A stretch of DNA of 64,000 nucleotides, taken from NCBI GenBank assembly GCA_040954595.2, contig CM082597.2, forward strand, positions 5,833,244 to 5,897,243, written 5' to 3'. The DNA is from Balanoglossus misakiensis. Lineage: Eukaryota; Animalia; Hemichordata. Position 1 is the first letter of the stretch, and the number at the start of each line of letters is the position of its first letter. Below, in pieces: positions 90 through 64,000 of this stretch. The notes beneath the pieces are model-generated. The model was not told where the DNA came from. It did no database searches and saw only the letters and a list, made by a program, of their open reading frames with translations. The position numbers and the translations under genes are program-made.

Positions 90-1470
90 AGGCTCACCTG
101 TAACACCATCTTAACTCATTAAATATTTGCATACCTAATTCCTGGCTAACAAATAGGGCTAGAGGTTTCGTTCTTGTGGGACATGGACAAGTATGGGGTC
201 AACATTTGTTGCCCAAATTTTGGGTGACCTCAGGTGACCTTTGACCTACTTTCCTATATCTCAGCACCTAGAGCAGGTACAGACTTGGCATTTGGGGGGT
301 TGGGACTACAATCGAAAAGCCAAATTGGGGGTCACCTGTGACACCTGCTCATCTCATTAATTATGTACATACCTAATTCTGGGCTAACTAATAGGGCAGG
401 AGGTTTTATTCTTAATGAACATGGATCAGTATGGGGTCAAAATTTCTTGCCCAAATTTTGCATGACCTCAGGTGACCTTTGACCTACTTTATCATATCTT
501 GGCATCCAGAGCAGGTACAGACTTGGCGTTTGTAGGGTTGGGACTAAAATTGAAAAGCCAAAATTGGGGGTCACCTGTGACACCTGCATATCTCATTAAT
601 TATGTGCATACCTAATTCCAGACTAACCAATACGGCTATAGGTTTGTTTTTTGTTGAACATGGACCAGTATAGGGTCAAAATGTCTTGCCCAAATTTTGC
701 ATGACCTCAGGTGACCTTTGACCTACTTTCCTATATCTCGGCATCCAGAGCAGGTACAGACTTGGCGTCTGCAGGGTTGGGACTAAAATTGTAAAGCCTT
801 AAATGGGGGTCACCTGTGACACCTGCTTATCTCATTAATTATGTGCATACCTAATTCCAGGCTAACCAATAGGGCTATAGTTTTGGTTTTTGTTGAACAT
901 GGACCAGTAAACGGTCAAAATTTCTTGCCCAAATTTTGGGTGACCTCAGGTAACCTTTGACTTCTTTCCTATATCTTGGCATCCACAGCAGGTACAGACT
1001 TGGAGTTTGGATTGTTGGGACTAAAAATTGAAAGCCAAAATTGGGGGTCACCTGTGACACCTGCATATCTAATTAATTATGTGCATTCCTAATTCCAGGC
1101 TATCCAATAGGGCTATAGTTTTGGTTTTTGTTGAACATGGACCAGTATAGGGTCGAAATTTCTTGCCCAAATTTTGGGTGACCTCACGAGACCTTTGACT
1201 TCTTTCCTGTATCTTGGCATCCACAGCAGGTACAGACTTGGAGTTTGGATTGTTGAGACTAAAAATTGAAAGCCAAAATTGGGGGTCACCTGTGACACCT
1301 GCATATCTAATTAATTATGTGCACTCCTAATTCCAGGCTATCCAATAGGGCTATAGTTTTGGTTTTTGTTGAACATGGACCAGTATAGGGTCGAAATTTC
1401 TTGCCCAAATTTTGGGTGACCTCACGAGACCTTTGACCTACTTTGCCATATCTTGGCATCCAGAGCAGAT
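90..1470. repeat. Tandem satellite, ~238-240 bp unit, about 6 copies
   Basis: The motif CATACCTAATTC...AATAGGGCTA recurs at ~130, 368, 608, 847, 1085 and 1323. Units share GGTGACC/GGTCACC and GCAGGTACAGACTTGG. The duplicated ORFs 875-1066 and 1113-1304 simply reflect this periodicity. Confidence 0.92.
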
Positions 1471-2630
1471 ATGCTCATTGCTATGTTGATATGTGCTATG
1501 TTGGCTTGGGCCCGCTATTGCTGCTTGCAGCTATATTTTTCTCTGAAGCCGCTTGTCATATTGCATTGAACTTTGGCAGCATGTGCCTTGTAGTGATTAG
1601 AGTAAGATATTGTACAATTTTGGTGATATTTACATATTTGTGTTTTTGCCACTTTTGAACAAATCTTTTCTGTGAAACTGCTTGTTGGATTGCTTTGAAA
1701 TTTGTTTTTTTCTCTGATTGCTTTGAAATTGAGGATATAGTTTCATAACACATACATGTATATGTGCAACTTTTATTCGATTCTGATACAGGCACCAAAT
1801 TCAGGCACCAAACTTATCTGTTTTTAAATCAAATGTTAAAACTTTACTTTTTAAATCTGCTTTTAGCCAATTGTTGTAGTGTATTATTTGCTTTTAGCGT
1901 CATTGATCACATTTTTGTGGATACTGACGCTTTATAAATAAATTATTATTATTTATTTATAATATCAGGAATATTCAAAATTTAGCAAGTTATTTTGTAA
2001 GTTTCTTTTTTTTGGTTAGCAAATCTTCTCCTAAACCAATTGTCCAGTTGTTTTGAAAGTTACTGTTTACAAGGAGTTGTGACCCCCAACTTAGACATGT
2101 TTACATAACTTTAATAGGCCAGCTGTTACAGAGACCACCGGCTATTAAATTTTTAATCACCAGTGGCAGGTCAGTGTGTGTCTGTCTGTCTGTTCCAGAG
2201 CTGACTGAAAGAAGTTGCTTCTCATATGTGTTTGTACAGACAATTTTTGCTCAATTTTTTTTCTAGCACCACTTGTAAGACTGCCATGACACATGACAGT
2301 TTATTGGGCATGTTCCTTGTTAAATTTTTTTTAAATTCCATATTTCTATATCGTAAGATCATATCTGCTTGCAATGTCACCTGTAATTTTTATTCTGGTC
2401 TGTCACTGTTTCCGCATAATCCTCAAATGGGACCACAGTGTCCTTGACGCTATTTTTATATTGAACGATTCTGGAAACTAAGCCAGGGTATGCCTTATGA
2501 ATAATGATTTTATTCAAATAATGCAAAATGTGGCCTTATGACCAACCCGCATTCTATAGTGATCACTATTGACAATGTACAGCAATCATTGAACAAGTCT
2601 TAAACAAATCTTAAATAATTTGTTATACAG

Positions 2631-5600
2631 ATGCCACACTAATAGAACATTCAGTTGGTACACTTCAGACTGCAGTGACGATAACATGGTTATTTGCGAG
2701 GATAAAAGTAAGTAGATGGGACATCAGCCTTTCCTGCATAGTTGACCACCTGTGTAGTTCTGTGGTGTGTATACATATGCCATGATACATGGAAAGTCGA
2801 CAAATGCATACACATGGTAACTACATTTATCCGCGTTGGAAGGGAGTCACATTGGAAATGCCCGTATGTGTAATGGACCACCTCTTGTTGCTTTTGGTAA
2901 ATGGATAATTGAAACAAAAGTTGTATTGTTCCGCCACAAGACGGTTAAATGATGGTCCTGCAGTGTATAGGAAGAGAATCGAAGGAACAATGACTTAAAC
3001 TATTGCAGCGCCTTAACTTCAGTGTGGACATGAACATTCCGCTAGGTTATATAGGTTGAAAACTAAGTGAAACTCTAGATAATAGTCAAGTTGATTGAAG
3101 ACCATATTCGTCTGCTTGCCTTTGCATGTGTCATCTTAGTGCCGTGTACATACAAGGGAGTCGAATTATAATATCCAAATGTTTCATGGACAATATTGGC
3201 ATGATTAGAGCGTTTGATCTCGCGATGACTTTTGTATGAGATTATTTTTACCGATTTCATTAGTATACACAGATAAAGGAATGCATGACATTGAAATTAT
3301 TTATGACTGACTTGACATGAAAGGAGGTTGTTGACAACGGAGTAAAGATGTCCCCTGAAAATGTTATATATTCATGTACTATTTTTAAGTCACGAATGCC
3401 TTCTCAATGTTAGAAATACAACACATAATATTTTGGCACCTCTCACATCATCTGCCTTTTACATTTGCAACATTCAGATGACTTACTTCTGCTGCGGGAG
3501 AGCTTGGTCAGGATAAGTGACGATGAATTCAGAACAGCAGATGTGGTAAGAAAGGTTCCAATCATTTGAGACTGATGTAATGCACTGTAGCGTAAAAAGC
3601 CACAAGTTAGCGAAATGCACTGAAGAGACAGAACATTTTTTGACAACTAATGCTACATTCTAAATTAATTTCACATAATGCTATACACCACATACTATGT
3701 AATTGTCTTTACACGTTTATTAAAGGTCCTTATAGGATATGACTATTTTGTGACAACTAAAGCTATACACTAAATTATTCCATATAAAGCTATAAAGCCA
3801 AGTACTAAATAATTGTCTATTCTTTGTACAGGGTATTAGTGTAATTGACAAGATAGACACTTTAACATCTGATCTGTCAAATAAAAGTGTCATATTTGAA
3901 GGAAGAATTCTATTTGCAAAAGGTATTGTGATCTTTTTTATTTAAGACCACAATGATCCGTGACGTCATTTTGTATTTCAACACCGTCCGCATTAAATAT
4001 CATCCAATGATGTAAATACGATAATGGTATCATACGCAGAAATGTAGAACCCTACAATCCCTAAGCGTATCGAATATGTGTCAACTATACTTCGTTTGTT
4101 TCAATGAATCATGCAGATAATTGGTGTCCATCAAATATGTTATTCTCAGAAAAACTAAGCATTGGGCAATTCCAAAAGCTGATGGATACGAGAAAAGAGA
4201 CATACTTATTATCAACCGGCGTATGATGCAATAGCCGATGCAGACCGACAGAGTGAGAAAGTTTTAAATGTCAATAATTATAAATTTCAGAAACACTGAA
4301 TGTTATGCAAAATGTGGTAGACAGAATGCAGTCCCTAATTGACGCCAATCCGAGCGACAGGCTGAAACCCGGGAAGGCAAATCACCTGACAAAGATAACA
4401 ACGAAAGTATTCCGCCAGTTATCAATGTTTATACTGAACGAGACTAATTATGGACATGGACCAATCATCGTGAACACTTCTTCTCTTGTGCTGCATCTGG
4501 AAAAGAACTTTACGCAGGACTTGTGCGACACCAGTATAATGATTGGAGATGGAAGTGGATTCAATATTCCACCAGCAGATATTATGTTTCCACAATTGTC
4601 GCAGGACACAGTCTTGGACGTGATGGTTCGTATACAACGTCTATAATCAGAAAAAAAATATTTCATTTTCAATCATACACTGCTTTATACTTCTATATTG
4701 ATATTTGTATACTATTGGTCGTTAGGACTTTTCCGCCAGTAAACTATAATGTGACGTCCCAGTGATCTTGCTATCATTAATGGAATGAATTGTAGGCTGA
4801 TATTTGTGTTGAGTCAATGCATCCGTTGCAATTGATTTTAAAAAAATTAGTCCATACTATATTTTAATGATGATCTTTGGTTTTACGTACAGTATATGTT
4901 GTTGTCATCTTGTGTCCTTATGCTCAAGAATAATTAAAGTAATTTTTTGCCTTTAGATTTTCCGTTTGGGTGTAAATCCCCACAGATTGGCAAATGACAC
5001 ATATGGCTTTACTACCGATATACTGACCTTGGAATTCAGAGATGAAGATGGTAATGAGATTAAAGGTTGGTTTTCATTAAGGCCAAACGTGGCATCCTAA
5101 CATTCTTAGGGAACTCACAACAATACTTGAAATGTTCAGGGGAAAGAAGTTGCCTCTCTGGAACGCCTTGTCTTAAGGGGTTATTCATTAGGCATGGAGC
5201 ATGTCCTGTGTCACCATTGTCGTAACGATGCACAATTTAAACTGGAAAAGGCGAATTCCTTCTTTAAAACAACTTTACCTAGAAACTAAGCAACATATTT
5301 GTATAAACATACTCGCTAGCGTTTTCATCTTGGAGGGCGTAACTAGTTTATTGACCAATCTGTGAATATACTTTGGAATCAGTTTGAGTTATAACATAAC
5401 ATTTTTATTTTCAGTACAAAATGCATCAGAGGATCTCGGTGTATGGCTTGGTAATTATCAGACACCTATAAATGAAAGCATCGTCAGGGGATTATACGTG
5501 GAAAGTGAAGGAGTCACTAACTATGCATTGACAGTAACGGTAATCTTCACATACTATATGAAGTTCACTGATCATTACATGTTTTCTGATCTAGTCTTTA

Positions 5601-7065
5601 ACATAACCATTTGATCAACGGGGCAAAACTCAAACATGAGTATTAATGGTATTGGTGTTATTTCAAACATAGTGTTATCTGTTACCTCACAAATTTCATT
5701 ATGTGAAGTTTATCATGCGTCGATTTATCATTATTTTCGTTGCAGGCGCTATCGGCCTACTCTGCATTTCAAATCACCATGGAAGCATCAGCGCCTGTCT
5801 TCGAGACTACTACAGCATACATGTCACTGGAAAGACTTGACGCCGTCGGTGGCTACAGTGATTTCCATTATGCAACTGACTTGGTATTTGCAGGGTGTAC
5901 AGCATCCATATTTCTACCAGAAGCAAAGATCACCAGGACGGGCTTGTATTACATATTCTTTGACCTTACCAGTGGTAAGATTGTGGTATTTACATAATTA
6001 ATACAACTATTGCACAATGATCGTTGATTGAAACACATAGTTGTGTTTTCTTTTCTTTTTTTGCTGTTTATGCTTCTTTTTAATTTCAAAAACGAACATG
6101 CATATGTAGAAAGTTATACTACGATCTTGCGGTTTTAATATAGCTTTCCCAATTTTCTAATTTTACTATCGAGCTTAGATTGGTCAATCTAAATATGCTT
6201 ACTGATGTTTATCTAAATATGCTTACTGATTGTAATACATTTACTTCTTGTCGATGCCCAATTGTGACTGCATGTTGCGATTTGATCAAGTGATATATTA
6301 AACGGGCGCTCAACCCGTTTAATCGGCCTCCATACAAAGGTGTACACAAAACACGTGGTATGCGTTCTGTATTTCATTTGCCTTTAGCAGTATAATACAA
6401 AAGTTTATGAATTTCATTTTCTGGGTGCACACTACCTTACAGACACTCCAGTTGGTTTTATATGGAATATGTTGATGTAACCGCAGTTCTGTATATGTTT
6501 TTTTCACTACAGCCCGTGGGGTTGACATCAAGGTTCTCACTACTCAACACAGATGTTCCTACTTTGATGAGACTAACTGGCAAAATGATGGTTGTAAGGT
6601 ATACAAATTAATTTCTTCTAAATTTTGCAAAAGTTGAAATGCTCCATGTACTTGCGATTGATGAAATTTAAGACAAGTGGCAATCAGTGTGATTTCAGTG
6701 GGTTCTGTGGATAAATATGCAACAAAAACTTAAAATGCAGGAAAAAGGTACTGCACCTTACAATTAATACTGACACATGGAAAATACCGTAAACGTACAA
6801 AATGTAGTGATTCACGTGAGGGCGCTTTTCCTTGTTTAAATTAACGCTGGGATGTGAACCAGGTGTTTGATCTTGTTTCACTTGCAAAGAAACGCCCAAT
6901 GCTTTGTCATCACGTTTTTTTCTGCTTGATATCTTGCAGGTGTCACCAAAATCCGACTTCAATTCTACCCTGTGTCTGTGTAATCACCTGACCGTTTTCA
7001 GTGCAATGGTGGAAGTTGTTGAATCTGATGGACGATTCCACGATGAGCGCAGGGTCGTCCATTAG
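2631..7065 (+). CDS. Lectin-GAIN/GPS paralog 1 (only exons 5-13 visible): end of CTLD2 + PKD1/REJ-type GAIN domain, no TM
   Basis: Frame-consistent exons: 2631-2707, 3478-3545, 3832-3922, 4291-4625, 4957-5065, 5415-5539, 5746-5974, 6513-6598, 6940-7065. GPS motif RCSYFDETNWQNDGCK|VSPKSDFNSTLCLCNHL-TVFSAM, then stop at FHDERRVVH*. Homology to paralog 2 starts at ~2452; upstream exons are not in the window, so it is either truncated or continues beyond the satellite. Confidence 0.8.
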
Positions 7066-7479
7066 ATCTCGAGAAGTGACAAAATAAGCTTATGGGAGAA
7101 GTTCCGAACTAATAATGTACCATTGACATAATATGATGTCACTTGCCATTGTAATAAACCATAATTTCACTTGTCATCAGGGTGGAGTTATATTCTGTAA
7201 CTTCAAAACAAATTGTATGTGTTGATCTTGGATTACTCTGGATTATTCTGGTTGATATTAAAGCGTACACTTAAAGTGCAGTATGTATGTATGGCGCCTT
7301 TTCCCATCGAATCAAATTACGCTTCATGTGATGATGCTCTGATGGATGGAAGGGAGGGAGGGATGGAGGGACTCCCTATAGGGAGGGAGGGAGGGAATGA
7401 GGGAGGAATGGAGGGAGTTGCTGTTGTTGTTGTTGTTGTTGCTGTTGTTGTAAAAATAGCTTTTTCTAGATGGGGTTCT

Positions 7480-8560
7480 TTACAAAACTTTTGAAAAGTT
7501 TGCATACTATACATAAAGGCAGACAGTCGATTTTTTGGAAAATGGATATTTGAGGAATAAACTATGCCGTATTTGGGTGGATTTTGCAGATACTTTCTCA
7601 CTATATGTGCCGTTTTGAATTCCTGGACATATTTATCTTCACCGACATCTCCCGCAGCGGAAGTTAGTCATCACATGAATATTGCAAATGTGAAATGTAG
7701 ATGACATGACAGGCGATAAAATCTTACAATTGGATTTTTAGAGTTGCAATTTTTTGAATAAGAAATGTTGCCATAAATAATTTAAAGCCACTCTTTCAGG
7801 ATCTACCTCAGAACCCTAACCGATGGGTTAACCTCTGGGAATCCGTATTGTAGCATTATTGTTGACGTGGACAATGCACTAAAGACAAGTTATTGAATAT
7901 ATATCACATGTACACTCAAAGGAAATGTATAAGTGCGGGACAATTTGCCGAATTGTCATTGATTGGGGTCAGATGCAAAATTTGTCAACCGTGGATTGCC
8001 TGAGAAGACGTAAATTGTTACAATGTTGTCGTGAAATCCCTTTGACGTTAACGATCATCGCCACATTCGTCGAAAGCATTTAAAAATGTTGCATTCCTCA
8101 CGGAGTGGGAGACGATCGATTTTGGGAATGTTGATATTGAGGGGGTGTGTATGTCGTATTTGGGTAAATTTTGCAGATACTTTTGTATACCAGATGTGCT
8201 GAATTCATACTCGCATATGTCTTCAGCAACACATCCCGCAGCAGAAGTAAGTCAATATCTGAATAATGTAAATGTTAAATGCAGATGACATGAGAGGCGG
8301 TAGAATATTACAAATTGTATTTTTAGAACTACAGAATTTGAGAATAAAAATGTGACCATAAATAAATTAAAGCCACTCTCTTAAGATCTAATCCAGGGGC
8401 CCTTACCGGAGGATTAACCTCTGGGAAACCGCATTGTAGCATTATCATTGGTGTGCTCAATGCATGAAAGGCAAGGCATTAAATATATATCACATGTACA
8501 CACAAGATAACTGTATATTTGCAGGACAATATGCCGAAATTCCATTAGTTGGGTGAAACA
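7480..8560. repeat. Duplicated upstream (putative promoter) module of the lectin-GAIN genes, including a decayed exon-1 copy
   Basis: 7480-7960 resembles 8110-8550, 22025-22450 and, in part, 21200-21390 (GCAGATA...CCCGCAGCGGAAGT...CCATAAATAA...TTAACCTCTGGGAATCCGTATTGTAGC). Segment ~7985-8070 (GCCTGAGAAG...GTCGTGAAATCCCTTTGACGTTAACGATCATCGCCACATTCGTC) matches exon 1 but lacks the ATGs and the donor site. Confidence 0.7.
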
Positions 8561-9193
8561 GTTGAGGAATTAAAATTGATATTTACACGTACGTATTTCC
8601 TTGATTTAAACAATAGACCAGGGAAACTTGTCATTTGATATTTGCAATACTGTTTTCAAATTTAATTTCCAACGAATTGTATTTGTTCAAACATGCACCC
8701 CTTTACATTTTTCATTGTGCCCTTCAGCAGGTAACGTGTGTACATGCACAAAGACTATCTTCTTGTTATCTCGAGGGTAGGGACAATTGACGCACTAACG
8801 TCCCAGTTGGTTGGCCCTAACAACCCCTAGGGTGTATCTGCTAACAAAACATGAAAGAGCACGACATAGCGTCTCCATTTATCCCATGCTCTCTGCGGTG
8901 GTTGCAATTCTTTACAAAACATAATAATTTGTCAAGTCCCCTGTGCGCTTTTAATGTCTTTCAGCAGTTGAAGTGTGTACATACACAAAGACTTTCTCCT
9001 TGTTATCTTGAGAAAGGTGTAGGGGCGGGGCAATTGACGCAGCAACGTTCCAGTTCCAAACATCCCGAAGGCATAGCGTCTCCATGGTGCCTTGCTCTCT
9101 CTACCAATAGTTACAATTCTTTGCAAAACACGCATAACTTATCAAGCTTTTAATATACAGGTTGATCGCAGATTAGCCGCACAACTCGCAACC

Positions 9194-12100
9194 ATGGCTC
9201 GTCTGAGAAGGTGTAAAATGTTGCGAGATTGTCGTGAAATACCCTTAAAGTTAACGCTCATCGCTACATTCGTCATTCTGTCGGTGACATTAGTGCAGCA
9301 AGCAGGTAAGACATTTTAATTCCTCAAAACCAAGCCTAGGTAAGAAATATCAGCAAAGCGGCAGATCTACACCGTCTAGATGGAAAGAAAGGCTGTCAAG
9401 CAGCGAAATCGAGATAATTTAGCTGCGCAAGGGGTTTGTCAAGCAGCAAAACCTAGATAGTCTAGCTGCAATTCCCGGGGTTTTTCCCGAAATTCCGTTG
9501 GATTTTAAAATGGCGATCAGGAGTATAAACACTCGCTAACTGTCAGTTTTTCCTGATATTAGGTGTTTAAAAGCAAAATTTCGGAATAAAATGTAGCGCG
9601 TTCTGGGACTAGTGAATTTAACAATAGTTGTGCCAAACGATTTTGTTAAACTCTCAATACTCTTTTGAAGATAGAAAAAAATCGGAGTACGGACAAGTCT
9701 AGCTATGCATGGCTGCAGGACCCTTGTGTCTTAATGCCGGCGATACCGCCGAGGAGTTTTTTTTATCTTCTACAAAAGTATTGAGAGTTTCACAAAATCG
9801 TTTGGCACAAGTATTTTCAAACGCATTAGTCCCTGAACGCGCTACATGTTATTCGAAAATGTTGCGTTTCATTCATTCATTCATTCATGTAAATATCGGG
9901 ATAAACTTACAGTTACAGGGCTGTGTACCTTACGGTGATGCCTTGGGTGCTCACCGGCCGTAAGACACAAGGGCCCTGCAGCCATGCATAGCTAGAGACG
10001 TGCCCGTGCTCCGAGTTTTTTTATCTTCTACAAAAGTATTGAGAGTTTCACAAAATCGTTTGGCACTACTATATGTAAATTCACTAGTCCCTGAACGCGC
10101 TACATGTTATTCCAACATGTTGCTTTTCATTCATTCATTCATTCATTCATTCATTCAAGTAAATATCGGGATAAACTTACAGTTACAGGGATGTGTATCC
10201 TACGGTGATGCCTTGGGGGGCTCGCCGGCCGTAAGACACAAGGGCCCTGAAGCCTTGCATAGCTAGACATGTCCGTACTCCGAGTTTTTTTATCTTCTAC
10301 AAAAGTATTGAGAGTTTCACAAAATCGTTTGGCACTACTATATGCAAATTCACTAGTCCCTGAACGCGCTACATGTTATTCCAACATGTTGCTTTTCATT
10401 CATTCATTCATTCATTCATTCATTCATTCATTCATTCATTCATTCATTCATTCATTCATTCATTCATTCAAGTAAATATCGGGATAAACTTATAGTTACA
10501 GGGATGTGTATCCTACGGTGATGCCTTGGGGGGCTCGCCGGCCGTAAGACACAAGGGCCCTGAAGCCTTGCATAGCTAGACGTGTCCGTACTCCGAGTTT
10601 TTTTATCTTCTACAAAAGTATTGAGAGTTTCACAAAATCGTTTGGCACTACTATATGTAAATTCACTAGTCCCTGAATGCGCTACATGTTATTCCAACAT
10701 GTTGCTTTTCATTCATTCATTCATTCATTCATTCATTCATTCATTCATTCATTCATTCATTCATTCATTCATTCATTCATTCATTCATTCATTCATTCAT
10801 TCATTCAAGTAAATATCGGGATAAACTTACAGTTACAGGGATGTGTACCTTACGGTGATACCTTGGGTGCTCACCGGCCGTAAGACACAAGGGCCCTGCA
10901 GCCATGCATAGCTAGAGACGTGTCCGTGCTCCGAGTTTTTTTTTCTATCTTCTTCAGTAGTATTGAGAGTTCAACAAAATCGTTTGGCACAACTATTTTC
11001 AAACGCATTAGTCCCTGAACGCGCTACATGTTATTCCAAAATGTTGCGTTTCATTCATTCATTCATTCATGTAAATATCGGGATAAACTTACAGTTACAG
11101 GGCTGTGTACCTTACGGTGATGCCTTGGGTGCTCACCGGCCGTAAGACACAAGGGCCCTGCAGCCATGCATAGCTAGAGACGTGTCCGTGCTCCGAGTTT
11201 TTTTATCTTCTACAAAAGTATTGAGAGTTTCACAAAATCGTTTGGCACTACTATATGCAAATTCACTAGTCCCTGAACGCGCTACATGTTATTCCAACAT
11301 GTTGCTTTTCATTCATTCATTCATTCATTCATTCATTCATTCATTCATTCATTCATTCATTCAAGTAAATATCGGGATAAACTTACAGTTACAGGGATGT
11401 GTATCCTACGGTGATGCCTTGGGGGGCTCGCCGGCCGTAAGACACAAGGGCCCTGAAGCCTTGCATAGCTAGACGTGTCCGTACTCCGAGTTTTTTTATC
11501 TTCTACAAAAGTATTGAGAGTTTCACAAAATCGTTTGGCACTACTATATGTAAATTCACTAGTCCCTGAATGCGCTACATGTTATTCCAACATGTTGCTT
11601 TTCATTCATTCATTCATTCATTCATTCATTCATTCATTCATTCATTCATTCATTCATTCATTCATTCATTCATTCATTCATTCATTCAAGTAAATATCGG
11701 GATAAACTTACAGTTACAGGGATGTGTACCTTACGGTGATACCTTGGGTGCTCACCTGCCGTAAGACACAAGGGCCCTGCAGCCATGCATAGCTAGAGAC
11801 GTGTCCGTGCTCCGAGTTTTTTTTTTCTATCTTCTTCAGTAGTATTGAGAGTTCAACAAAATCGTTTGGCACAACTATTTTCAAACGCATTAGTCCCTGA
11901 ACGCGCTACATGTTATTCCAAAATGTTGCGTTTCATTCATTCATTCATTCATGTAAATATCGGGATAAACTTACAGTTACAGGGCTGTGTACCTTACGGT
12001 GATGCCTTGGGTGCTCACCGGCCGTAAGACACAAGGGCCCTGCAGCCATGCATAGCTAGAGACGTGTCCGTGCTCCGAGTTTTTTTATCTTCTACAAAAG

Positions 12101-15100
12101 TATTGAGAGTTTCACAAAATCGTTTGGCACTACTATATGCAAATTCACTAGTCCCTGAACGCGCTACATGTTATTCCAACATGTTGCTTTTCATTCATTC
12201 ATTCATTCATTCATTCATTCATTCATTCATTCATTCATTCATTCATTCATTCATTCAAGTAAATATCGGGATAAACTTATAGTTACAGGGATGTGTATCC
12301 TACGGTGATGCCTTGGGGGGCTCGCCGGCCGTAAGACACAAGGGCCCTGAAGCCTTGCATAGCTAGACATGTCCGTACTCCGAGTTTTTTTATCTTCTAC
12401 AAAAGTATTGAGAGTTTCACAAAATCGTTTGGCACTACTATATGTAAATTCACTAGTCCCTGAATGCGCTACATGTTATTCCAACATGTTGCTTTTCATT
12501 CATTCATTCATTCATTCATTCATTCATTCATTCATTCATTCATTCAAGTAAATATCGGGATAAACTTACAGTTACAGGGATGTGTACCTTACGGTGATAC
12601 CTTGGGTGCTCACCGGCCGTAAGACACAAGGGCCCTGCAGCCATGCATAGCTAGAGACGTGTCCGTGCTCCGAGTTTTTTTTTCTATCTTCTTCAGTAGT
12701 ATTGAGAGTTCAACAAAATCGTTTGGCACAACTATTTTCAAACGCATTAGTCCCTGAACGCGCTACATGTTATTCCAAAATGTTGCGTTTCATTCATTCA
12801 TTCATTCATGTAAATATCGGGATAAAGTTACAGTTACAGGGCTGTGTACCTTACGGTGATGCCTTGGGTGCTCACCGGCCGTAAGACACAAGGGCCCTGC
12901 AGCCATGCATAGCTAGAGACGTGTCCGTGCTCCGAGTTTTTTTATCTTCTACAAAAGTATTGAGAGTTTCACAAAATCGTTTGGCACTACTATATGCAAA
13001 TTCACTAGTCCCTGAACGCGCTACATGTTATTCCAACATGTTGCTTTTCATTCATTCATTCATTCATTCATTCATTCATTCAAGTAAATATCGGGATAAA
13101 CTTACAGTTACAGGGATGTGTACCTTACGGTGATGCCTTGGGGGGCTCGCCGGCCGTAAGACACAAGGGCCCTGAAGCCATGCATAGCTAGACGTGTCCG
13201 TACTCCGAGTTTTTTTTATCTTCTACAAAAGTATTGAGAGTTTCACAAAATCGTTTGGCACAACTATTTTTAAATTCACTAGTCCCAGAACGCGCTTCAT
13301 GTTATTCCATAATGTTGCTTTTAAACACATAAATATCAGGAAAAACTTGCAGTTAGCGAGTGTTTGTACTCCTGATCGCCATTTTGAAATCCAACGCAGT
13401 TTCGGGAAAAATCCAGGGAATTGCAGCTATACTATCTAGGTTTTGCTGCTTGACAGCCTTTCTTTCCATCTAGACGGTGTAGATTCGCCGCTTTGCTGAT
13501 ATTTCTTACCTAGGCCTGAAAACAGAAGCACATGAATCTTATTATTTTGTGATTGTTTAAACTGACTGTCATAAGAATAACGATTTTATTTCCAGGTTGC
13601 GTCACCTACCACGTTTTCGGGTATATGGATCAGCCTTCTGCCTACAGTTTTTGTGAGCGATTAGGTCTCCGTCTTGTTAAAGATGACAGCGAAGAAAAAC
13701 ACGCAGCTATAGTAAACAGTTTAAAAGGACGAGGCTTTATTCCATACACTGAATTATGGATAGATGCTCGACTGACTGACAACGGAAGCGTAGTCACAAG
13801 AGACGGGGAAATTTTGACTCACAAGCCCAGGGGTACAGATTTTTCAGAAAATGATGGAGAGTGTCTCGCACTGGCGTGAGTTCAGCGTTTTCAAACTATA
13901 TTATAATATGCAAAACTGTGTGATTTTTTTTGCTCATAATAATACAGCTCAACTTGAAGCAATCATTCTGTGTCATGCGCAGAAGCTGACAATGGAAAAT
14001 CAGTAGGGACAGAGTTTATTGACAATTTAAAGACATGCAGATGTTACAATAGACAATATATTCGGATCACAATTATATTTCTTTTGTAATTGCGTACACA
14101 TGTCTCCTTTTGTGGAAAAATTCAATTCGGTAACTGTAAGATATGTCCAGATTTATCTCATCGTTTACCAAACTTTCACAACAAAATGTGTTACAACAAT
14201 CTAACTCTGATTTATTTAAGTTTCTGCCAATTTTAGATCATGTAGACTTTATTCTCCATTGTCTTTGGATCTTAGTCAACCGTTAAGGAGAAATTGCAGA
14301 AAACGTTTTGTAGTATACATTATAATATACCTCATGCTAATACTGTGTTGTGATTCGCCATAATCCGTCACGTGATAGGAAAATATAATCGACGATGGAT
14401 CCCTAGGGAAAATTTCAATCGGAAACTGTGAGATATGTCCATTTTACCGTTGAACAAAAACCTGTCTCTGCAAAAATGTGGTACAACAATCTAACAAATT
14501 TATCTCATGTTTCTGACAATTTAAGATCACGTGGATTGAATTCTTCATTGTTGTTTGATGGTTGATCGGCGTTAATGAGTGGAGATAACATATTATTACT
14601 TGACGTTTCAATTACCAGGAATGACGCATGGATAAATATTAATTGTAACACGAACGGCACCGTCGGCCCTCTATTGGAGGTTCTGTGTGAAAATGCGAGT
14701 AAGTTCTAGTTCAATTAATTCTTTTACACTTACTTCATACTTTTCCTTATGACTGATCGACCTATCTTTGTTGGTTCAAGTGGAAAGACACGTTTTTAAT
14801 TTATGTATTTTTATAACATTTGCCTCTTTATGTATATGAAACAATCACCTTCTTAAATTGATATAACATGTATTTGGTTTATTTACGAAATATATGTAGA
14901 TACTTATCGGTGTTTTTTCGCCATTTTTATTATTATACAGACGACAAATAAACGCTTAATTAGAGACACTAAACCATTATAGACATTTATTTTAAAGCCT
15001 CTATAGCTGCCAAATTTCACATTATTTCCGCAGTAAAATACTTCAAATATATTCCCTATCCTCTAAAATCCTCACCATTATGCCGTATTACCTGCAATTG

Positions 15101-18100
15101 CATCAGTTTGTCATCTCTTGGCGTGGCATACCACGATAGCTGCGTACTGTTTGTATGGAGGCTGATTAAATCGGTGCGGCACCTGTTTAATACATGTTCA
15201 AAATTGCAATCGGGCATCGATAAGGTGTTCATGTATACCTATCAGCTAGTAGGCTTATTTAGATGGATCAATTTAAGTTGGAAAATAAAATCATGAAAAT
15301 AATGCAAAAAGTGGCAGCTTTAGAGGATTTTAAGGGAAATAAATTACGTTTATCTCATTTGCAGCTTCTTTCGACTTAACTACGACTCTCACGAGGAGCG
15401 TGGTTGATGCACACAAGGTATGTGAAAAGTTTGGGTTACGTCTTCTAACCGACACAACCCCATGGGATTACGACCAGTACTGTTTGGGCGGTCCATTGGT
15501 GCAGGATTTTGTGGGTTATATATGGATTGATGCTTTCATCGCGGCAGATGGCAAAGTCAAGACAGCCAGTGGTTTTATATTGGAATACACGCCTTTTATT
15601 GGCAACGTGCGATTAGAAGTCGGATTGTGCGTTTACGTAGAGTGAGTCATTCTTTGTTCACGCTGTTTTCCGCGTTGCTAGAACCGTATGCATGTTTTTC
15701 CATTTCTTTAATCATTTTAACTAGCTGTCATAGGCGTTGGAACTTGCGAGATTACTTTGGAGAAAAGATGGCAGTTAAATGTGTGTATGCTTGTTGCAAC
15801 ATGTGTTTCTTATCTTAAAGGTTACAATCAGTAATTTGCACTATTTCTGGTATTTTATCAACTTAATCTGCCATATCGTCTGAATTGCAAAGCATACTTT
15901 GAGCATGGTACTCTACAGCTAACGCTGATTGCATTACAATTCCAACATGTGCCCTACAACATGAAAGACAGTGGATGTAAGAAAGTAATCGGAACCCTGC
16001 GCATGTCAAGATTGAGTTTTTATATTGAACGATTTTGGAAAACTAAGCCAGGGTATGCTTCATGAATAATTATTTTATTCAAATAACGCAAAATGTGGCG
16101 TTATGACCAACCCGCATTCTGTAGAGATCACTATTGACACTGTACAGCAATCATTGAACAAGTCTTAAACAATAATTTGTTATACAGTTGCGACGACGAA
16201 ATAATTAGTAGAAAAACCATATGGTCCCTTGAAAACTGCACTGAGAATAGACTGGTTGTTTGCGAGGATAAAAGTAAGTAGTTGTGACATCAGCCTTTCC
16301 TGCATAGTTGACCACCTGTGTAGTTCTGTGGTGTGTATACATACAACATATGCCATAATACATGGAAAGTCGACAAATGCATACGCATGGTAACTACATT
16401 TATATGCGTTGGAAGGGAGTCACATTGGAAATGCCTGTATGTGTAATGGACCATCTCTTGTTGCTTTCGGTAAATGGATAATTGAAACAAAAGTTGTATT
16501 GTTCCGCCACAAGACGGTTAAATGATGGTCCTGCAGTGTATAGGAAGAGAATCGAAGGAACAATGACTTAAACTATTGCAGCGCCTTAACTTCAGTGTGG
16601 ACATGAACATTCCGCTAGGTTATATAGGTTGAAAACTAAGTGAAACTCTAGATAATAGTCAAGTTGTTTGAAGACCATATTCGTCTGCTTGCCTTTGCAT
16701 GTGTCAACTTAGTGCCGTGTACATACAAGGGAGTCGAATAATAATATCCAAATGTTTCATGGACATTATTGGCATGATTATTGGCATGTTTGATCTCGCG
16801 ATGACTTTTGTATGAGATTATTTTTACCGATTTCATTAGTATACACAGATAAAGGAATGCATGACATTGAAATTATTTATGACTGACTTGACATGAAAGG
16901 AGGTTGTTGACAACGGAGTAAAGATGTCCCCTGAAAATGTTATATATTCATGTACTATTTTTAAGTCACGAATGCCTTCTCAATTTTATAAATACAACAC
17001 ATAATATTTTGGCACCTCTCACATCATCTGTCTTTTACATTTGCAACATTCAGATGACTTACTTCTGCTGCGGGAGAGCTTGGTCAGGATAAGTGACGAT
17101 GAATTCAGAACAGCAGATGTGGTAAGAAAGGTTTCAATCATTTGAGACTGATGTAATGCACTGTAGTGTAAAAAGCCACAAGTTAGCGACGTCCACTGAA
17201 ACGTACTTTAAATGTCTTTATGGGATATGACTATTTTGTGACAACCACATACTAAATAGCTGTATTTTCTTTTGCCAGGGTATTAGTGTAATTGACAAGG
17301 TGGACACTTTAACCTCTGACCTCTTAAATAAAAGTGTCATATTTGAAGGAAGAATTCTATTTGCAAAAGGTATTGTGATCTTTTTTATTTAAGACCGCAA
17401 TGATCCGTGACGTCATTATGTATTTCAACACCGTCCGCATTAAATATCATTCAATGATGTAAATACGATAATGGTATCATACGCAGAAATGTAGAACCCT
17501 ACAATCCCTAAGCGTATCGAATATGTGTCAACTATACTTCGTTTGTTTCAATGAATCATGCAGATAATTGGTGTCCATCAATTATGTTATTCTCAGAAAA
17601 ACTAAGCATTGGGCAATTCCAAAAGCTGATGGATACGAGAAAAGAGACACACTTATTATCAACCGGCGTATGATGCAATAGCCGATGCAGACCGACAGAG
17701 TGAGAAAGTTTTAAATGTCAATAATTATAAATTTCAGAAACACTGAATGTTATGCAAAATGTGGTAGACAGAATGCAGTCCCTAATTGACGCCAATCCGA
17801 GCGACAGGCTGAAACCCGGGCAGGCAAATCACCTGACAAAGATAACAACGAAAGTATTCCGCCAGTTATCAATGTTTATACTGAACGAGACTAATTATGG
17901 ACATGGACCAATCATCGTGAAAACGTCTTCTCTTGTGCTGCATCTGGAAAAGAACTTTACGCAGGACTTGTGCGACACCAGTATAATGATTGGAGATGGA
18001 AGTGGATTCAATATTCCACCAGCAGACAGTATGTTTCCACAATTGTCGCAGGACACAGTCTTGAACGTGATGGTTCGTATACAACGTCTATAATCAGAAA

Positions 18101-20502
18101 AAAAAATATTTCATTTTCAATCATACACTGCTCTATACTTCTATATTGATATTTGTATACTATTGGTCGTTAGGACTTTTCCGCCAGTAAACTATAATAT
18201 GACGTCCCAGTGATCTTGCAATCATTAATGGAATGAATTGTAGGCTGATATTTGTGTTGAGTCAATGCATCCGTTGCAATTGATTTTTAAAAAATTAGCC
18301 CATACTATATTTTAATGATGATCTTTGGTTTTATGTACAGTATATGTTGTTGTCATCTTGTGTCCTTATGCTCAAGAATAATTAAAGTAATTTTTTGCCT
18401 TTAGATTTTCCGTTTGGGTGTAAATCCCCACAGATTGGCAAATGACACATATGGCTTTACTACCGATATACTGACCTTGGAATTCAGAGATGAAGATGGT
18501 AATGAGATTAAAGGTTGGTTTTCATTAAGGCCAAAAGTGGCATCCTAACATTCTTAGGGAACTCACAACAATACTTGAAATGTGCAGGGGAAAGAAGTTG
18601 CCTCTCTGGAACGCCTTGTCTTAAGGGGTTATTGATTAGGCATGGAGCATGTCCTGTGTCACCATTGTCGTAACGATGCACAATTTAAACTGGAAAAGGC
18701 GAATTCCTTCTTTAAAACAACTTTACCTAGAAACTAAGCAACATATTTGTATACAAATACTCGCTCATAATTTCATCTTGGAGGGCGTAACTAGATTAAT
18801 GACCAATCTGTGAATATACTTTTGAAATCAGTTTGAGTTATAACATAACATTTTTATTTTCAGTGAAAAATGCATCAGAGGATCTCGGTGTATGGCTTGG
18901 TAATTATCAGACACCTATAAATGAAAGCATCGTCAGGGGATTATACGTGGAAAGTGAAGGAGTCACTAACTATGCATTGACAGTAACGGTAATCTTCACA
19001 TACTATATGAAGTTCACTGATCATTACATGTTTTCTGATCTAGTCTTTAACATAACCATTTGATCAACAGGGCAAAACTCAAACATGAGTATTAATGGTA
19101 TTGGTGTTATTTCAAACATAGTGTTATCTGTTACCTCACAAATTTCATTATGTGAAGTTTATCATGCGTCGATTTCTCATTATTTTCGTTGCAGGCGCTA
19201 TCGGCCTACTCTGCATTTCAAATAATCCTGGAAGCATCAGCGCCTGTCTTCGAGACTACTACAGCATACATGTCACTGGAAAGACTTGACGCCGTCGGTG
19301 GCTACAGTGATTTCCATTATGTAACTGAGTTGGTATTTGCAGGGTGTACAGCATCCATATTTCTACCAGAAGCAAAGATCACCAGGACGGGCTTGTATTA
19401 CATATTCTTTGACCTTACCAGTGGTAAGATTGTGGTATTTACATAATTAATACGACTATTGCACAATGATCGTTGATTGCAACACATAGTTGTGTTTTCT
19501 TTTCTTTTCTTTTTTTTGCTGTTTATGCTTCTTTTTAATTTAAAAAACGAACATGCATATGTAGAAAGTTATACTACGATCTTGCGGTTTTAATATAGCT
19601 TTCCCAATTTTCTAATTTTACTATCGAGCTTAGATGGGTCCATCTAAATATGCTTACTTATGTTTATCTAAATATGCTTACTGATTGTTATACATTTACT
19701 TCTTGTCGATGCCCAATTGTGACTGTATGTTGCAATTTGATCAAGTGATATATTAAACGGGAGCTCAACCTGTTTAATCGGCCTCCATACAAAGGTGTAC
19801 ACAAAACACGTGGTATGCGTTCTGTATTTCTTTTGCCTTTAGCAGTATAATACAAAAAATTATGAATTTCATTTTCTGGGTGCACACAACCTTACAGACA
19901 CTCCAGTTGGTTTTATATGGAATATGTTGATGTAACCTCAGTTCTGTATATCTTTTTTTCACTACAGCCCGTGGGGTTGACATCACTGTTCTCACTACTC
20001 AACACAGATGTAGTTACTTTGACGAGACTAACTGGCAAAATGATGGTTGTAAGGTATACAAATTAATTTCTTCTAAATTTTGCACAAGTTGAAATGCTCC
20101 ATGTACTTGCGATTGATGAAATTTAAAGACAAGTGGCAATCAGTGTGATTTCAGTGGTTACTATGGATAAATTTGCAACAAAAACTTAAAATGCAGAACA
20201 AGGTACTGCATCTTACAATTAATACTGACACATGGAAAATACCGTAAACGTACAAAATGTACTGATTCACGTGGGGGCGCTTTTCCTTGTTTAAATTAAC
20301 GCTGGGATTTGAACCAGGTGTTTGATCTTGTTTCACTTGCAAAGAAACGCCCAATGCTTTGTCATCACGTTTTTTTCTGCTTGATATCTTGCAGGTGTCA
20401 CCAAAATCCGACTTCAATTCTACCCTGTGTCTGTGTAATCACCTGACTGTTTTCAGTGCAATGGTGGGAGTTGTTGAATCTGATGGACGATTCCACGTTT
20501 AG
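9194..20502 (+). CDS. Lectin-GAIN/GPS paralog 2: signal peptide + 2 C-type lectin-like domains + GAIN/GPS, ~653-661 aa, no TM
   Basis: 13 exons: 9194-9305, 13596-13875, 14619-14698, 15365-15641, 16188-16273, 17054-17121, 17279-17369, 17738-18072, 18405-18513, 18864-18988, 19195-19423, 19968-20053, 20395-20502. Total 1986 nt, phases consistent. Hydrophobic leader LTLIATFVILSVTLVQQA. CTLD motifs AYSFCERLGLRLV...LWIDA...C...W..INC...VLCE and AHKVCEKFGLRLL...IWIDA...C...W..ENC...VVCE. GPS CLCNHL-T, then stop. The start may be the second Met at 9218. Confidence 0.88.
9331..13518. mobile_element. Non-autonomous DNA transposon with ~400-bp imperfect TIRs, 5-bp TSD and internal satellite array, in intron 1 of paralog 2
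   Basis: Starts CAAGCCTAGGTAAGAAATATCAGCAAAGCGGC and ends GCCGCTTTGCTGATATTTCTTACCTAGGCCTG. AAAAC is duplicated at 9326-9330 and 13519-13523. The paralog-3 intron shows the empty site (CTCAAAACAGGAG at ~22680). Segment 9331-~9745 is the imperfect reverse complement of ~13145-13518. Confidence 0.9.
9752..13205 (+). repeat. Tandem array of 12 units of ~260-340 bp, each with a variable (TTCA)n tract
   Basis: Units start near 9752, 10013, 10281, 10594, 10932, 11195, 11487, 11813, 12076, 12381, 12671 and 12933. Length differences come from (TTCA)n. This produces the spurious HSFI-repeat ORFs. Confidence 0.95.
14992..15333. mobile_element. TTAA-flanked MITE (Kolobok-like); related pieces at ~34220-34570, ~53070-53288, ~55466-55660, ~6240-6335, ~19700-19790
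   Basis: TTAAAGCCTCTATAGCTGCCA...TGGCAGCTTTAGAGGATTTTAA termini. The core GAGGCTGATTAAATCGGTG...CAATCGGGCATCGATAAGGTG recurs elsewhere. Confidence 0.65.
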
Positions 20503-22543: not shown

Positions 22544-25500
22544 ATGTTAAAAGATTGTGGTAAAATACCTTCGACGTTGACTCTCGTCGCTACATTCGTG
22601 ATGTTGTCGGTGACATTGCTGCAGCAAGCAGGTAAGACACTAATTATGGATTTTTGCACGTTCAGAAAGTCTAAAGCTGCTCAAAACAGGAGCTCATAAG
22701 TCTTATCATCGTGTTATTGGAAAATGAATGATTGTAATAAGAATAACGATTTGATCTCCAGATTGCAACTTCTTGCGCGGGTGGTCGGATCACGCTACAG
22801 CTTACACGGTTTGTGAGCGATTGGGTCTTCGCCTTGTTAAAGTTGACAGTGAAAGAAAAAACGCAGCTATAGTAAACACTTTAGAGAAACGAGGCATCGC
22901 TGATTTATGGTACTGGATAGACGGACTGTTAATTGACGACGGAAGCGTAGTCACAAGAGAAGGGGAAATGTTGACCATCCAGTCGCAGGTTGAATTGAAA
23001 TGGGGAAATTGCGTCGCAATGAAGTGAGTTGAGAGTTTTGACAATATATTTAAATATGAAAAATAATGTCTTTGTGGTCATTTTAATATAGCTTAATCCA
23101 GTGCAGAGGCATGCAATCTGTAAAAATATATCAGTGGGGACAGAATTAATTTACATTTTAATGATATCCAGATGTTACAATCGGCAATGTTTCCAGAAAA
23201 ACATTATTGGCAATTGCACGCCCATATACCTCGAGTTTTATATGGGAAATTTCTATCTGCAACTTTGATATATGTCCAGTTTTCTATCAACGTTACTTTA
23301 GAACACCAAGCTTTGTCTGCAAAATGTGGTAAAACATTTAACCATATTTGTCTATTTTTTGCAAATTTTAGATCTAGTTGATCTAATTACCAATTATCTC
23401 CGGGTCTTAATACAATTAAAGGGAAAATGTAGAAAACGTTTCAATATAGTTTGTCAGATGTATGGGTTGACTTGCGTTAAGGGGTGAAACTTTAATATAC
23501 TTTCAAAACTTTTTAATTCACAGAACAGAGTGGGGCTATTTTAAGTGTTCGCGCGTCCATGGCGTTTTATGTGAAAATGCAAGTAAGTTACGGTTTAATA
23601 AAGATCTTTTAACCAAGTTCATGGTTGTTCCTAGCGAGTGATCTAATCTATCATGTTTTTTGGTATTCTATAACATTTTACTCACGTGATTCAGTATCTC
23701 ACGAGGTTATACTGGTATTATATGTGGTCGATTATCTGCTTAGGCCTATTTGCATATTTAATGACATTTTCTAATTTATGCTATATTTCCGAAATTACTG
23801 CACCGAATTTGATGAAATTTGCTACAGATATTGAATGTGGCCGACATGTGGTTGTGTTATGAGAAATTTAGCAATGAAATGTTAATTAATGGCTAATTTT
23901 CAGATTTAATGACTTTAATCAATCGGCCTCAAACGATCCAGAGATCATACAGCAAATCCGATGAATCTCTAGATATTGTTTTCACGTCTATTAAGCTGCA
24001 TTTAGTAATAACTTACAGCTCATTTGAATTTTATGAACCTGTTTTGTTTAGTGCTATGTTTCTGAAATAAATGTACCGAATTTGATGAAACATGCTAGAA
24101 ATGTTGATACGACAGGAATCTGACTATATTGTAAGACATTTCGCAGTGTCATGTTAATTAATGAATAATTTGCATATTTAACTAATTTGTGCAGTTAGCC
24201 CTTCGAATCCCGAGTTCCTGCACCAAATTTAATTGAAATTGTCAGCCAAACTGTTTCTATATCAATTATACTGTATTTAAAAATACTGTGCCTATTTCTA
24301 ATCAATGCAAGGCAAATTTGCATATTTTATGACTTGTTCTGATTAGTGCTCTGTTTCTGAAAATAATGCACTGAATGTGATGAAATGCTTAAATTATTAA
24401 TCTTCAAGTTTCCTTTAGCTATGGATAAGAGTCAATTCACGTCATTTTTTTTCTTTAAGTGGTCAAAATGTATTGGTTTATTTAGATAAATAATTTGAAA
24501 AAAAAATATGATAATTATCCCAAAAGTTGCAGCCTATATGCAATTGCACCAAAACAAAATATACTTTTTTCCGTATTCGAATTTGACGGGAAAGAAATGA
24601 CGTTTTTCCCCCAATATGCAGCATCTTTAGACTTTATTCCCACACGGGCGAGCATGATGTCTTCATACCAGCTATGTGAGAAGAGTGGGCTCCGTCTTCT
24701 GACTGACACCACTGAATGGAACATCGACCAGTATTGTGCGTCCATTTGTAAGGGATGGCACCCAAGATTTTGGATTGACGCCACCATCACGGCAGATGGC
24801 ACTGTGAAGACAAGCAGCGGTTTGGTATTGGAACACTCCCATTATGCCCCCGACCAGAATCTTGACGTCGGGTCGTGTATTTACGCAAGGTGGGTCGCTG
24901 TCTGTTCAAGCTACTTTCCTTAGTGCCACACAGAAGACATAGTTTTACATTTCTTTCATGACGTTACGTTAATTGTCATAGAGTTTCAACATAGGAGAAA
25001 TGATGGCAGTTGAATGATTTGAATAAGTGTGTATTGTTACGTTTTCTTATCCCAAAGGTAACTCTCTGCTGCTAAAAATCACTACTTTTGCACTATTTCT
25101 GGTATTTTGTCAAGTTTGAGTTCTATGTTTTGCCTTTTGGTAATTAACTTTACCTGCTATATCGTCTGAATCGCAAACCACAATGTGAGCATGATACTTT
25201 ACAGCTAACGCTGGCTGCAATATCATTCCAACATGCGTTTTACAGCATAGTAGACAGTGGATGTAGGAAATTTATCGGAACCATGCCCATACCAAATTTG
25301 ATTTTAAATATTCATAACGATTTTAGAACACTAAGCCAGGGTGTGGCAGCACGGTTAATGATTTTATTCATTAATGCAAACTTTGCAGGTTGGTCATGAG
25401 GCCATCCTATAGAGATCATTCTACACACGTATGATTATCAATATAGACACTGTGCAGTGACCATTGTAGACATTAACTTCAATAAGCGTTGTGAACAGTG

Positions 25501-32586: not shown

Positions 32587-32610
32587 CTGTAAGAGTGGTC
32601 GCACATTGTC

Positions 32611-32843
32611 TTAAAGGGAAGGGGTCGTCGCACCGCGAGGGTGTCCCCCTTGATGAGAATATGCCCTCCCATACCAGCGCAAACCCCACTGCAGTCGCCA
32701 CGACCTACTAGGATCTTCAGTTGCTGCCATGCCCAGTCTACGCTACAGTTGGCTGCTTCGTTCATTCTAAGAATGGTCTAATTTGTTTTGGATAAATTGT
32801 AATGTTTATAAACAAACGCGGCGTGACGACCCCTTCACTTTAA
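32611..32843. mobile_element. TTAA-flanked MITE; second copy at 42236-42479
   Basis: TTAAAGGGAAGGGGTCGTCG...GACGACCCCTTCACTTTAA termini; the copy at 42236-42479 is highly similar. Confidence 0.85.
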
Positions 32844-60500: not shown

Positions 60501-60548
<48 letters not shown>

Positions 60549-63983: not shown

Positions 63984-64000
63984 TTTTTACCAAGTGATGA

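What the first reader, a model, noticed from the sequence alone, without database searches (positions are those of the whole stretch)
2452..16290. Hypervariable lectin exon embedded in near-identical introns (paralog 1 vs 2)
Seen: intron 2452-2630 matches 16017-16187, and 2708-3477 matches 16274-17053, almost base for base. The exon between them differs radically: CHTNRTFSWYTSDCSDDNMVICEDK (2631-2707) vs CDDEIISRKTIWSLENCTENRLVVCEDK (16188-16273). Paralog 3 has CFSDKCEWLTRDCNRPLDLVCEDN. Only the structural C, W, C and CED survive, and the indels preserve frame. This reverses the usual exon/intron conservation pattern and falls on the ligand-binding end of the CTLD. Inference: strong diversifying selection, intron homogenisation by gene conversion that spares the exon, or targeted exon-cassette replacement, as in immune, allorecognition or gamete-recognition loci.
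Basis: partly seen in the sequence, partly recalled or inferred. Interest (0 to 1): 0.88.

Follow-up and report, generated by a model that had tools for sequence, protein, structure and literature searches.

The report
Hypervariable lectin loop in GAIN family
In a multi-copy family of likely secreted lectin-plus-GAIN proteins from what is likely an acorn worm, one small exon differs strongly between copies by almost only amino-acid-changing mutations while the neighbouring introns stay about 97% identical, which likely reflects selection for new binding specificities rather than exon swapping.

Summary
Exon 5 of paralogs 1 and 2 differs at 22 of 77 aligned bases plus a 9-nt in-frame indel, against about 3% in the rest of the duplicated block. 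The exon is collinear, not foreign: about 20.5 changes alter amino acids and 0.5 are silent (dN 0.45, dS 0.04, equal to background). That favours diversifying selection, with mosaic conversion among copies as a helper, and argues against cassette replacement. Contigs from one public sample hold the paralog-1 intron-exon-intron junction and at least five exon types between the same splice sites, so it is not a mis-assembly and is family-wide. The genes encode a predicted signal peptide, two divergent C-type lectin domains and a GAIN domain, and stop just after the GPS site with no membrane segment. Closest relatives are uncharacterised Ptychodera flava proteins that also end at the GPS. The evolutionary pattern is known (opsins, venoms, sea urchin REJ); I found no description of this family. 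Statistical support for dN>dS is modest, and immune versus gamete function is untested.

The parts
2631..2707 (+). p1 exon 5: C-terminal part of the second C-type lectin domain (hypervariable)
   Evidence: AG/GT ends, phase 2 to 1, open; covered with both flanks by a 169-nt contig with 1 other letter (X2 record 10)
16188..16273 (+). p2 exon 5, 3 codons longer than in p1
   Evidence: a related contig differs at 9 letters plus a 3-nt deletion, all inside the exon
25515..25588 (+). p3 exon 5, older and saturated relative to p1 and p2
   Evidence: 8 of 24 residues identical to either
2453..2630 (+). remaining 3' part of p1 intron 4, matches 16017-16187
   Evidence: 9 mismatches in 170 aligned bases
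2708..3477 (+). p1 intron 5, matches 16274-17053
   Evidence: 19 mismatches in 770 aligned bases
2631..7065 (+). p1, exons 5-13 only, open frame to a stop after the GPS motif
   Evidence: nothing in 1-2452 matches upstream parts of p2 or p3
9218..20502 (+). p2, complete 13-exon model, 648 aa: predicted signal peptide, CTLD1 (exons 2-3), CTLD2 (exons 4-5), GAIN (exons 6-13)
   Evidence: model from splice signals and homology, no RNA
22544..29317 (+). p3, complete 13-exon model, 629 aa, same architecture
20395..20502 (+). p2 last exon with GPS motif (HL/T), tethered strand, short tail and stop
   Evidence: Pfam GPS E 0.0009, just under the curated cut-off; no hydrophobic segment above 1.6 after residue 40
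1480..2457 (.). very high-depth interspersed repeat, likely a mobile element, that interrupts or truncates p1 in intron 4
   Evidence: summed contig depth 2e4-5e5 in X1 and X2 with loose ends at 2417 and 2457
115..1468 (.). 238-bp tandem array upstream of the repeat
9749..13322 (.). 260-310-bp tandem array with TTCA runs in p2 intron 1

Best explanation
Exon 5 encodes the likely ligand-contacting end of the second C-type lectin domain of a multi-copy, likely secreted lectin-GAIN protein, and it has likely been driven apart between copies by diversifying selection on ordinary germline point mutations and in-frame indels, while recent duplication and inferred gene conversion keep the introns and GAIN exons alike. 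Shown: the divergence peak, its replacement-only make-up, several exon types between the same splice sites, the domain order and the stop after the GPS. Inferred: secretion (hydrophobic N-terminus only), position on the binding face (W-x4-C matches the place of the WND motif; recalled CTLD topology, low-confidence model of a homolog), and conversion. Function, my guess: recognition of microbes or parasites in mucus or body fluid (about 0.5), sperm-egg recognition (about 0.3), other (0.2). Canonical EPN/QPD/WND calcium-sugar motifs are absent, so the ligand may be protein.
For: Exon 5 p1/p2: Nd 20.5 of 60.9, Sd 0.5 of 14.1, dN 0.447, dS 0.036; exons 6-13: pN 0.020, pS 0.038. Indel-free half (W to end): 13 changes, 0 silent; neutral simulation P(at most 1 silent of 21) = 0.024. 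A p2-like contig in both runs differs at 9 letters and a 3-nt deletion, all in the exon, flanks identical; 8 are replacements and the ninth, at the deletion edge, is a replacement by my hand reading. Five loose-end reads of other exon types are open and keep the C, W, C, VVC frame (hand-translated); two 3' halves differ from p1 by 17 changes with at most 1 silent (hand count). Summed contig depth falls from 1200-2900 in the flanks to 57-146 in the exon core (X1). Differences outside exon 5 are clustered. GAIN fold: homolog P0006 (41% identical to p1) modelled at pLDDT 84.8 matches ADGRL3 and ADGRG6 GAIN at Z 17.6, rmsd 3.3 and 3.0, 232 and 213 residues.
Against: Power is low: only about 14 silent sites. 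Fisher P for dN>dS is 0.02-0.05 for the best indel placement and 0.04-0.38 for the seven others. The p2-like contig alone gives P 0.09-0.12. Two 5' halves from loose ends show about 4 silent of 19 changes (hand count), near the neutral 22%. p3 comparisons show dS at or above dN in lectin exons. The runs are one sample; summed depth is no copy number, and alleles cannot be told from paralogs. p1 may be a 5'-truncated copy. A phase-0 donor-like site after the tethered strand scores 5.7 in p2 and p3, inside the range of real donors (3.7-10.7), so splicing to an unseen membrane exon is not excluded.
Confidence: 0.7

Rival explanations
1. Old divergence spared from conversion: the exon types are ancient, and conversion has since homogenised everything around them, stopped in the exon by selection and by mismatch (opsin-type divergence peak).
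For: Mosaic differences; p2/p3 5' half much older than the 3' half (exon 1 dS 0.56, lectin exons 0.70, GAIN exons 0.12); short blocks shared in patchwork among exon types; pattern described for opsins (PMC3924837, passages).
Against: An old exon should carry silent differences; p1/p2 show 0.5 of 14.1, and flank divergence next to the exon is 3-7%, not a broad peak. With so few sites dS up to about 0.2 cannot be excluded, so a mixed history is plausible.
Confidence: 0.18
2. Programmed diversification: targeted cassette replacement or somatic or germline hypermutation of exon 5.
For: Sharp confinement to one exon with identical flanks; many types in one sample.
Against: No orphan exon-5 donor in the window (the rest of the genome was not available). 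Transitions 8 of 22 against 43 of 101 in introns (P 0.64) and no adenine bias. A mutator would not avoid silent sites. The p1 exon recurs nearly unchanged in a sample that differs from the window at many fixed places.
Confidence: 0.05
3. p1 and p2 are two haplotypes of one gene placed in tandem by the assembly, so the difference is allelic.
For: About 3% divergence is of the order of heterozygosity in marine invertebrates (recalled); p1 begins at a repeat.
Against: Sequence after p1 is only 75-80% like sequence after p2 and leads into a distinct exon 1; more than two exon types occur in one sample. Even if true the exon would still be hypervariable.
Confidence: 0.05
4. p1 is a truncated pseudogene whose exon decayed, or a chimeric mis-assembly.
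For: p1 lacks exons 1-4 in the window.
Against: Decay would hit introns and silent sites equally; exons 5-13 are open with canonical splice sites; a read-derived contig holds the p1 junctions.
Confidence: 0.02

Closest known systems
Sea urchin sperm receptors for egg jelly SpREJ1-3 (PKD1 family)
   Same: C-type lectin domains N-terminal to a GPS; their lectin domains are reported under positive selection (PMC1934368, passages). One P. flava hit is named 'sperm receptor for egg jelly-like', two 'polycystin-1-like'.
   Different: SpREJ proteins have a REJ module and 1-11 membrane segments. The window's models have no membrane segment, no room for a REJ module between lectin and GAIN, and occur as many near-identical copies.
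Ciona s-Themis (polycystin-1-like self-sterility receptors)
   Same: Hypervariable N-terminal region on a GPS-bearing protein (PMC9265791, passages).
   Different: s-Themis has REJ, LH2 and 5 or 11 membrane segments, and a partner gene in its first intron; neither is seen here (p2 intron 1 is mostly a tandem array).
Adhesion GPCR GAIN domains (ADGRL3, ADGRG6)
   Same: Homolog model matches at Z 17.6; GPS profile hit to ADGRG6, E 1.1e-6.
   Different: No seven-helix domain follows; the model has an inserted beta-sandwich of about 110 residues.
Exon-over-intron divergence in primate opsins and snake venom gene families
   Same: Divergence peak in an exon with similar flanking introns (PMC3924837; PMC2711939; passages).
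   Different: Here the peak is almost purely non-synonymous and is repeated over at least five exon types in a non-venom family.
Oyster bindin F-lectin repeats
   Same: Lectin diversified by positive selection at the binding pocket plus recombination (PMC5712786, passages).
   Different: Different fold; its intron is described as highly variable, here the introns are near-identical.
Uncharacterised Ptychodera flava GAIN-terminal proteins (P0002 = XP_070568693.1, isoform P0036)
   Same: Two lectin domains at 35% and GAIN at 44% identity to p2; ends at the GPS.
   Different: Carries HYR repeats between lectin and GAIN; only this locus came back as a close match, so the expansion may be specific to the window's lineage.

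Membership tests
C-type lectin-like domain | Fold and four core cysteines with WIG-like motif | tested here: met
   Single exons hit Lectin_C weakly (E 0.0085, below cut-off); homolog P0002 passes the cut-off (E 8.2e-10) and aligns at 35%; WID motif and cysteines present. The homolog model is low confidence (pLDDT 48) but all listed fold matches are C-type lectin structures.
Calcium-dependent carbohydrate-binding C-type lectin | EPN or QPD plus WND calcium-site motifs | tested here: not met
   None of these motifs in p2 or p3.
GAIN domain | Helical subdomain A, beta-sandwich subdomain B, C-terminal GPS with HL/T | tested here: met
   (fold tested on homolog P0006, 41% identical to p1).
GAIN domain | Autoproteolysis at the GPS | not testable with these tools
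   HL/T is present in all three models; cleavage needs protein work.
PKD1/REJ family | Membrane segments after the GPS, with PLAT domain | tested here: not met
   Stop 17-23 codons after HL in the three models, no hydrophobic segment; 16 of 35 homologs reach the GPS and all 16 end within 23 residues. Caveat: models, no RNA; donor-like site.
PKD1/REJ family | REJ module | tested here: not met
   Lectin exons join the GAIN exons directly; no REJ hit in 23 of 34 homologs scanned. Atlas neighbours carry GPS, PLAT or REJ, a lead for ancestry only.
Adhesion GPCR | Seven-transmembrane domain after GAIN | tested here: not met
   no plausible membrane exons between the paralogs; 12 hydrophobic open stretches further downstream look like low-complexity sequence and were not pursued.
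Diversity-generating retroelement-like or AID-like mutator | Adenine-specific or transition-biased changes, template copy | tested here: not met
   Spectrum equals that of introns; no template copy in the window.
Gamete-recognition or allorecognition locus | Gamete expression, allele-specific effect on fusion or fertilisation | not testable with these tools
   No RNA holder listed.

The most novel reading that the evidence does not exclude
Acorn worms encode a repertoire of hypervariable recognition heads as separate genes: lectin, HYR, SRCR, SUEL or F5/8 domains on a GAIN domain without a membrane part. Several P. flava members end exactly at the cleavage site (HL, HLT, HLK), as if pre-cleaved. 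Such heads could dock on the tethered strand of shared membrane-bound polycystin or adhesion-GPCR fragments and give a combinatorial, swappable receptor system for immunity or gamete recognition.
Probability: 0.08. Interest if true: 0.9.

Novelty: new variant of a known kind. Interest (0 to 1): 0.52.

Why it matters
Hemichordate recognition systems are barely described. An expanded family with a replacement-only hypervariable loop (apparent dN/dS near 12, imprecise) is a concrete candidate for an immune or gamete-recognition repertoire, and its near-identical introns let one primer pair amplify the whole repertoire. A GAIN domain made without any membrane part also offers a natural test of what GAIN does apart from receptor activation. 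The evolutionary pattern itself is already known from opsins, venoms and REJ proteins.

Tried and rejected
No whole genome is held, so donors and p1 exons 1-4 outside the window could not be sought. Word-based protein searches with exon 8 and with the P0002 lectin pair among shorter proteins found nothing; weak evidence. No RNA holder listed; run X3 has next to no cover of the gene. The PDB sequence search with exon 2 alone was uninformative; the A3 profile was dominated by the NHL repeats of P0029 and gave only weak lectin hits. The lectin-pair model was low confidence, so residue-level mapping of exon 5 rests on motifs. No terminal repeats stand out in 1400-2700, so the element type is unknown. 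P0034 (FG-GAP repeat protein) and P0035 were left out of the GPS count. No polycystin ectodomain appeared in the fold lists; inconclusive. Earlier findings of the scan: none. Paper searches for this family (listings only, plus passages of PMC13554239 and PMC13672419) gave no description; the library lacks most subscription papers and I read no supplements. Mah et al. 2005 was seen only as cited. No complex was predicted: no partner is known.

Full report
Observation. The window holds three tandem plus-strand paralogs. p1 and p2 are homologous from 2453/16017 to about 7124/20585. The flanks of exon 5 differ at 9 of 170 and 19 of 770 aligned bases; the exon differs at 22 of 77 plus a 9-nt in-frame indel, against 150 of 4457 elsewhere (Fisher P 2.4e-14; permutation maximum 15 per 75 bases). 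The only comparable window is the tail at 7040-7124 where homology ends.

What the genes are. Splice signals give 13-exon models of 648 aa (p2) and 629 aa (p3): hydrophobic N-terminus, two divergent C-type lectin domains each split over two exons, and about 370 residues ending in a GPS motif, a short tail and a stop. No membrane segment follows. A full HMMER search with exon 8 gave 34 hits; of 20 looked up, 19 are Ptychodera flava proteins and 1 is unnamed, at about 30-50% identity, so the window likely comes from another acorn worm (inference). The best full match, P0002, has the same lectin pair (35%) and C-terminal domain (44%), with HYR repeats between. A model of homolog P0006 (pLDDT 84.8) is a GAIN domain (Z 17.6 to ADGRL3 and ADGRG6). 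Of 35 homologs examined, 16 reach the GPS and all 16 end within 23 residues; the other 19 stop earlier. None of 23 scanned carries 7TM, PLAT, REJ or channel domains; their N-termini carry lectin, HYR, F5/8, SUEL, SRCR or PAN domains. These are gene models; a donor-like site after the tethered strand leaves splicing to a membrane exon open. p1 lacks exons 1-4 in the window and abuts a very high-depth repeat ending near 2457; it is either truncated or interrupted.

How the exon diverged. The two exons are collinear. Of 21 differences in 25 codon pairs, 20.5 are replacements (of 60.9 sites) and 0.5 silent (of 14.1): dN 0.45, dS 0.04, while exons 6-13 give pN 0.020 and pS 0.038. Silent divergence thus equals the intron background, and only replacements are in excess. 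The indel-free half has 13 changes, none silent. The formal support is modest: neutral simulation P 0.024; Fisher P 0.02-0.05 for the best indel placement and up to 0.38 for worse ones. The spectrum is ordinary (8 of 22 transitions against 43 of 101 in introns; no adenine bias), and no spare exon-5 copy lies in the window. Outside exon 5 the p1/p2 differences are clustered (P 0.001), and p2/p3 are much closer in the GAIN half (dS 0.12) than in exon 1 and the lectin exons (0.56, 0.70), which points to conversion or unequal crossing-over among copies.

Evidence from other data. Two runs of one public sample hold 45-47% of the sampled words and differ from the window at many fixed places, so they are probably another individual (inference). 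A 169-nt contig covers 2578-2746 with one other letter: the p1 junctions are real. On 16110-16350 the summed depth drops from 1200-2900 in the flanks to 57-146 in the exon core in X1, and likewise in X2; depth is no copy number, but it shows that most laid contigs share the flanks and not this exon. One contig in both runs is p2-like with 9 substitutions and a 3-nt deletion, all inside the exon; 8 are replacements and the ninth is one by hand reading; alone this has P about 0.1. Of 22 loose-end rows 12 were shown; five distinct ones read into other exon types, all open and with the cysteine and tryptophan frame kept (hand translation). Counting 3' halves gives at least five types besides the p3-like one. 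Against p1, two 3' halves show 17 changes with at most 1 silent, two 5' halves 19 changes with about 4 silent (hand counts; the latter is near neutral). Alleles and paralogs cannot be separated.

Mechanism. Most likely (0.7): a recently expanded, converting tandem family in which selection favours new residues and loop lengths at the C-terminal end of the second lectin domain. By recalled CTLD topology, exon 5 covers the beta3-beta4 hairpin, the strand that carries WND in classical lectins, and the last strand; the calcium-sugar motifs are absent. Rivals: old exon spared from conversion (0.18), programmed replacement or hypermutation (0.05), haplotypes placed in tandem (0.05), decay or mis-assembly (0.02). 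For function I lean to microbe or parasite recognition because of the copy number, the predicted secretion and the range of pattern-recognition-type heads in the P. flava family; sperm-egg recognition is the main rival because of the REJ likeness. Neither is tested.

Comparison with what is known. Exons outrunning introns is described for opsins under conversion (PMC3924837, passages) and snake venom families (PMC2711939, passages). Positively selected lectin domains on GPS-bearing proteins are reported for sea urchin REJ1-3 (PMC1934368, passages), and a hypervariable region for Ciona s-Themis (PMC9265791, passages); oyster bindin diversifies a different lectin fold (PMC5712786, passages). The genes here work like these in evolutionary terms but fail membership of the PKD1/REJ and adhesion-GPCR families for want of REJ and membrane domains. 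Five paper searches showed no description of a lectin-GAIN family without membrane part; the library is incomplete.

Verdict. Real, not an artefact; a known evolutionary pattern in a strong form, on an apparently undescribed hemichordate family. New variant of a known kind; interest 0.52.

Noticed in passing
window 7593-7689, 8195-8273, 21129-21168, 22162-22218 (minus strand): Inverted, decayed copies of exon 6 with its upstream intron end (75-80% identity) lie upstream of exon 1 of both p2 and p3; an extra exon-1-like piece lies at 8000-8071. Origin unexplained.
   Followed up: partly
P0002, P0004, P0006, P0009, P0017, P0023, P0036: These homologs end exactly at the GPS cleavage site (0-1 residues after the HL-type motif), without the tethered strand.
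   Followed up: partly
model of P0006, residues about 204-321: A beta-sandwich inserted in the GAIN domain, weakly like carbohydrate-binding and GOLD domains (Z 7.6-8.9); the window's exons 10-12 likely encode the same part.
   Followed up: no
window 7040-7124: The tail after the GPS diverges sharply between p1 and p2 (23 of 75 bases), and p1 has a longer C-terminus.
   Followed up: partly
window 3600-3880, 5300-5350, 6530-6570: Short patches of raised p1/p2 divergence, some shared with p3, likely conversion tracts.
   Followed up: partly
window 30998-31567, 32192-32704, 37980-38531 (minus strand): Long exons of a neighbouring gene or genes with immunoglobulin domains (V-set E 1.2e-8 for 32192-32704; weak or no hit for the others).
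   Followed up: no
window 62301-63986 (minus strand): Single-exon AMP-binding (acyl-CoA synthetase-like) frame of 562 residues.
   Followed up: no
window 59333-59875 and 60033-60593: A 560-bp inverted repeat at 96% identity.
   Followed up: no
window 31584-31879, 37321-37678, 45941-46307, 49702-50063, 56727-56957, 61959-62186: A family of 230-360-bp self-complementary interspersed repeats, MITE-like.
   Followed up: no
window 9331-9754 and 13136-13518: Inverted arms (82%) bracket the tandem array in p2 intron 1, suggesting a mobile element with an internal satellite.
   Followed up: no
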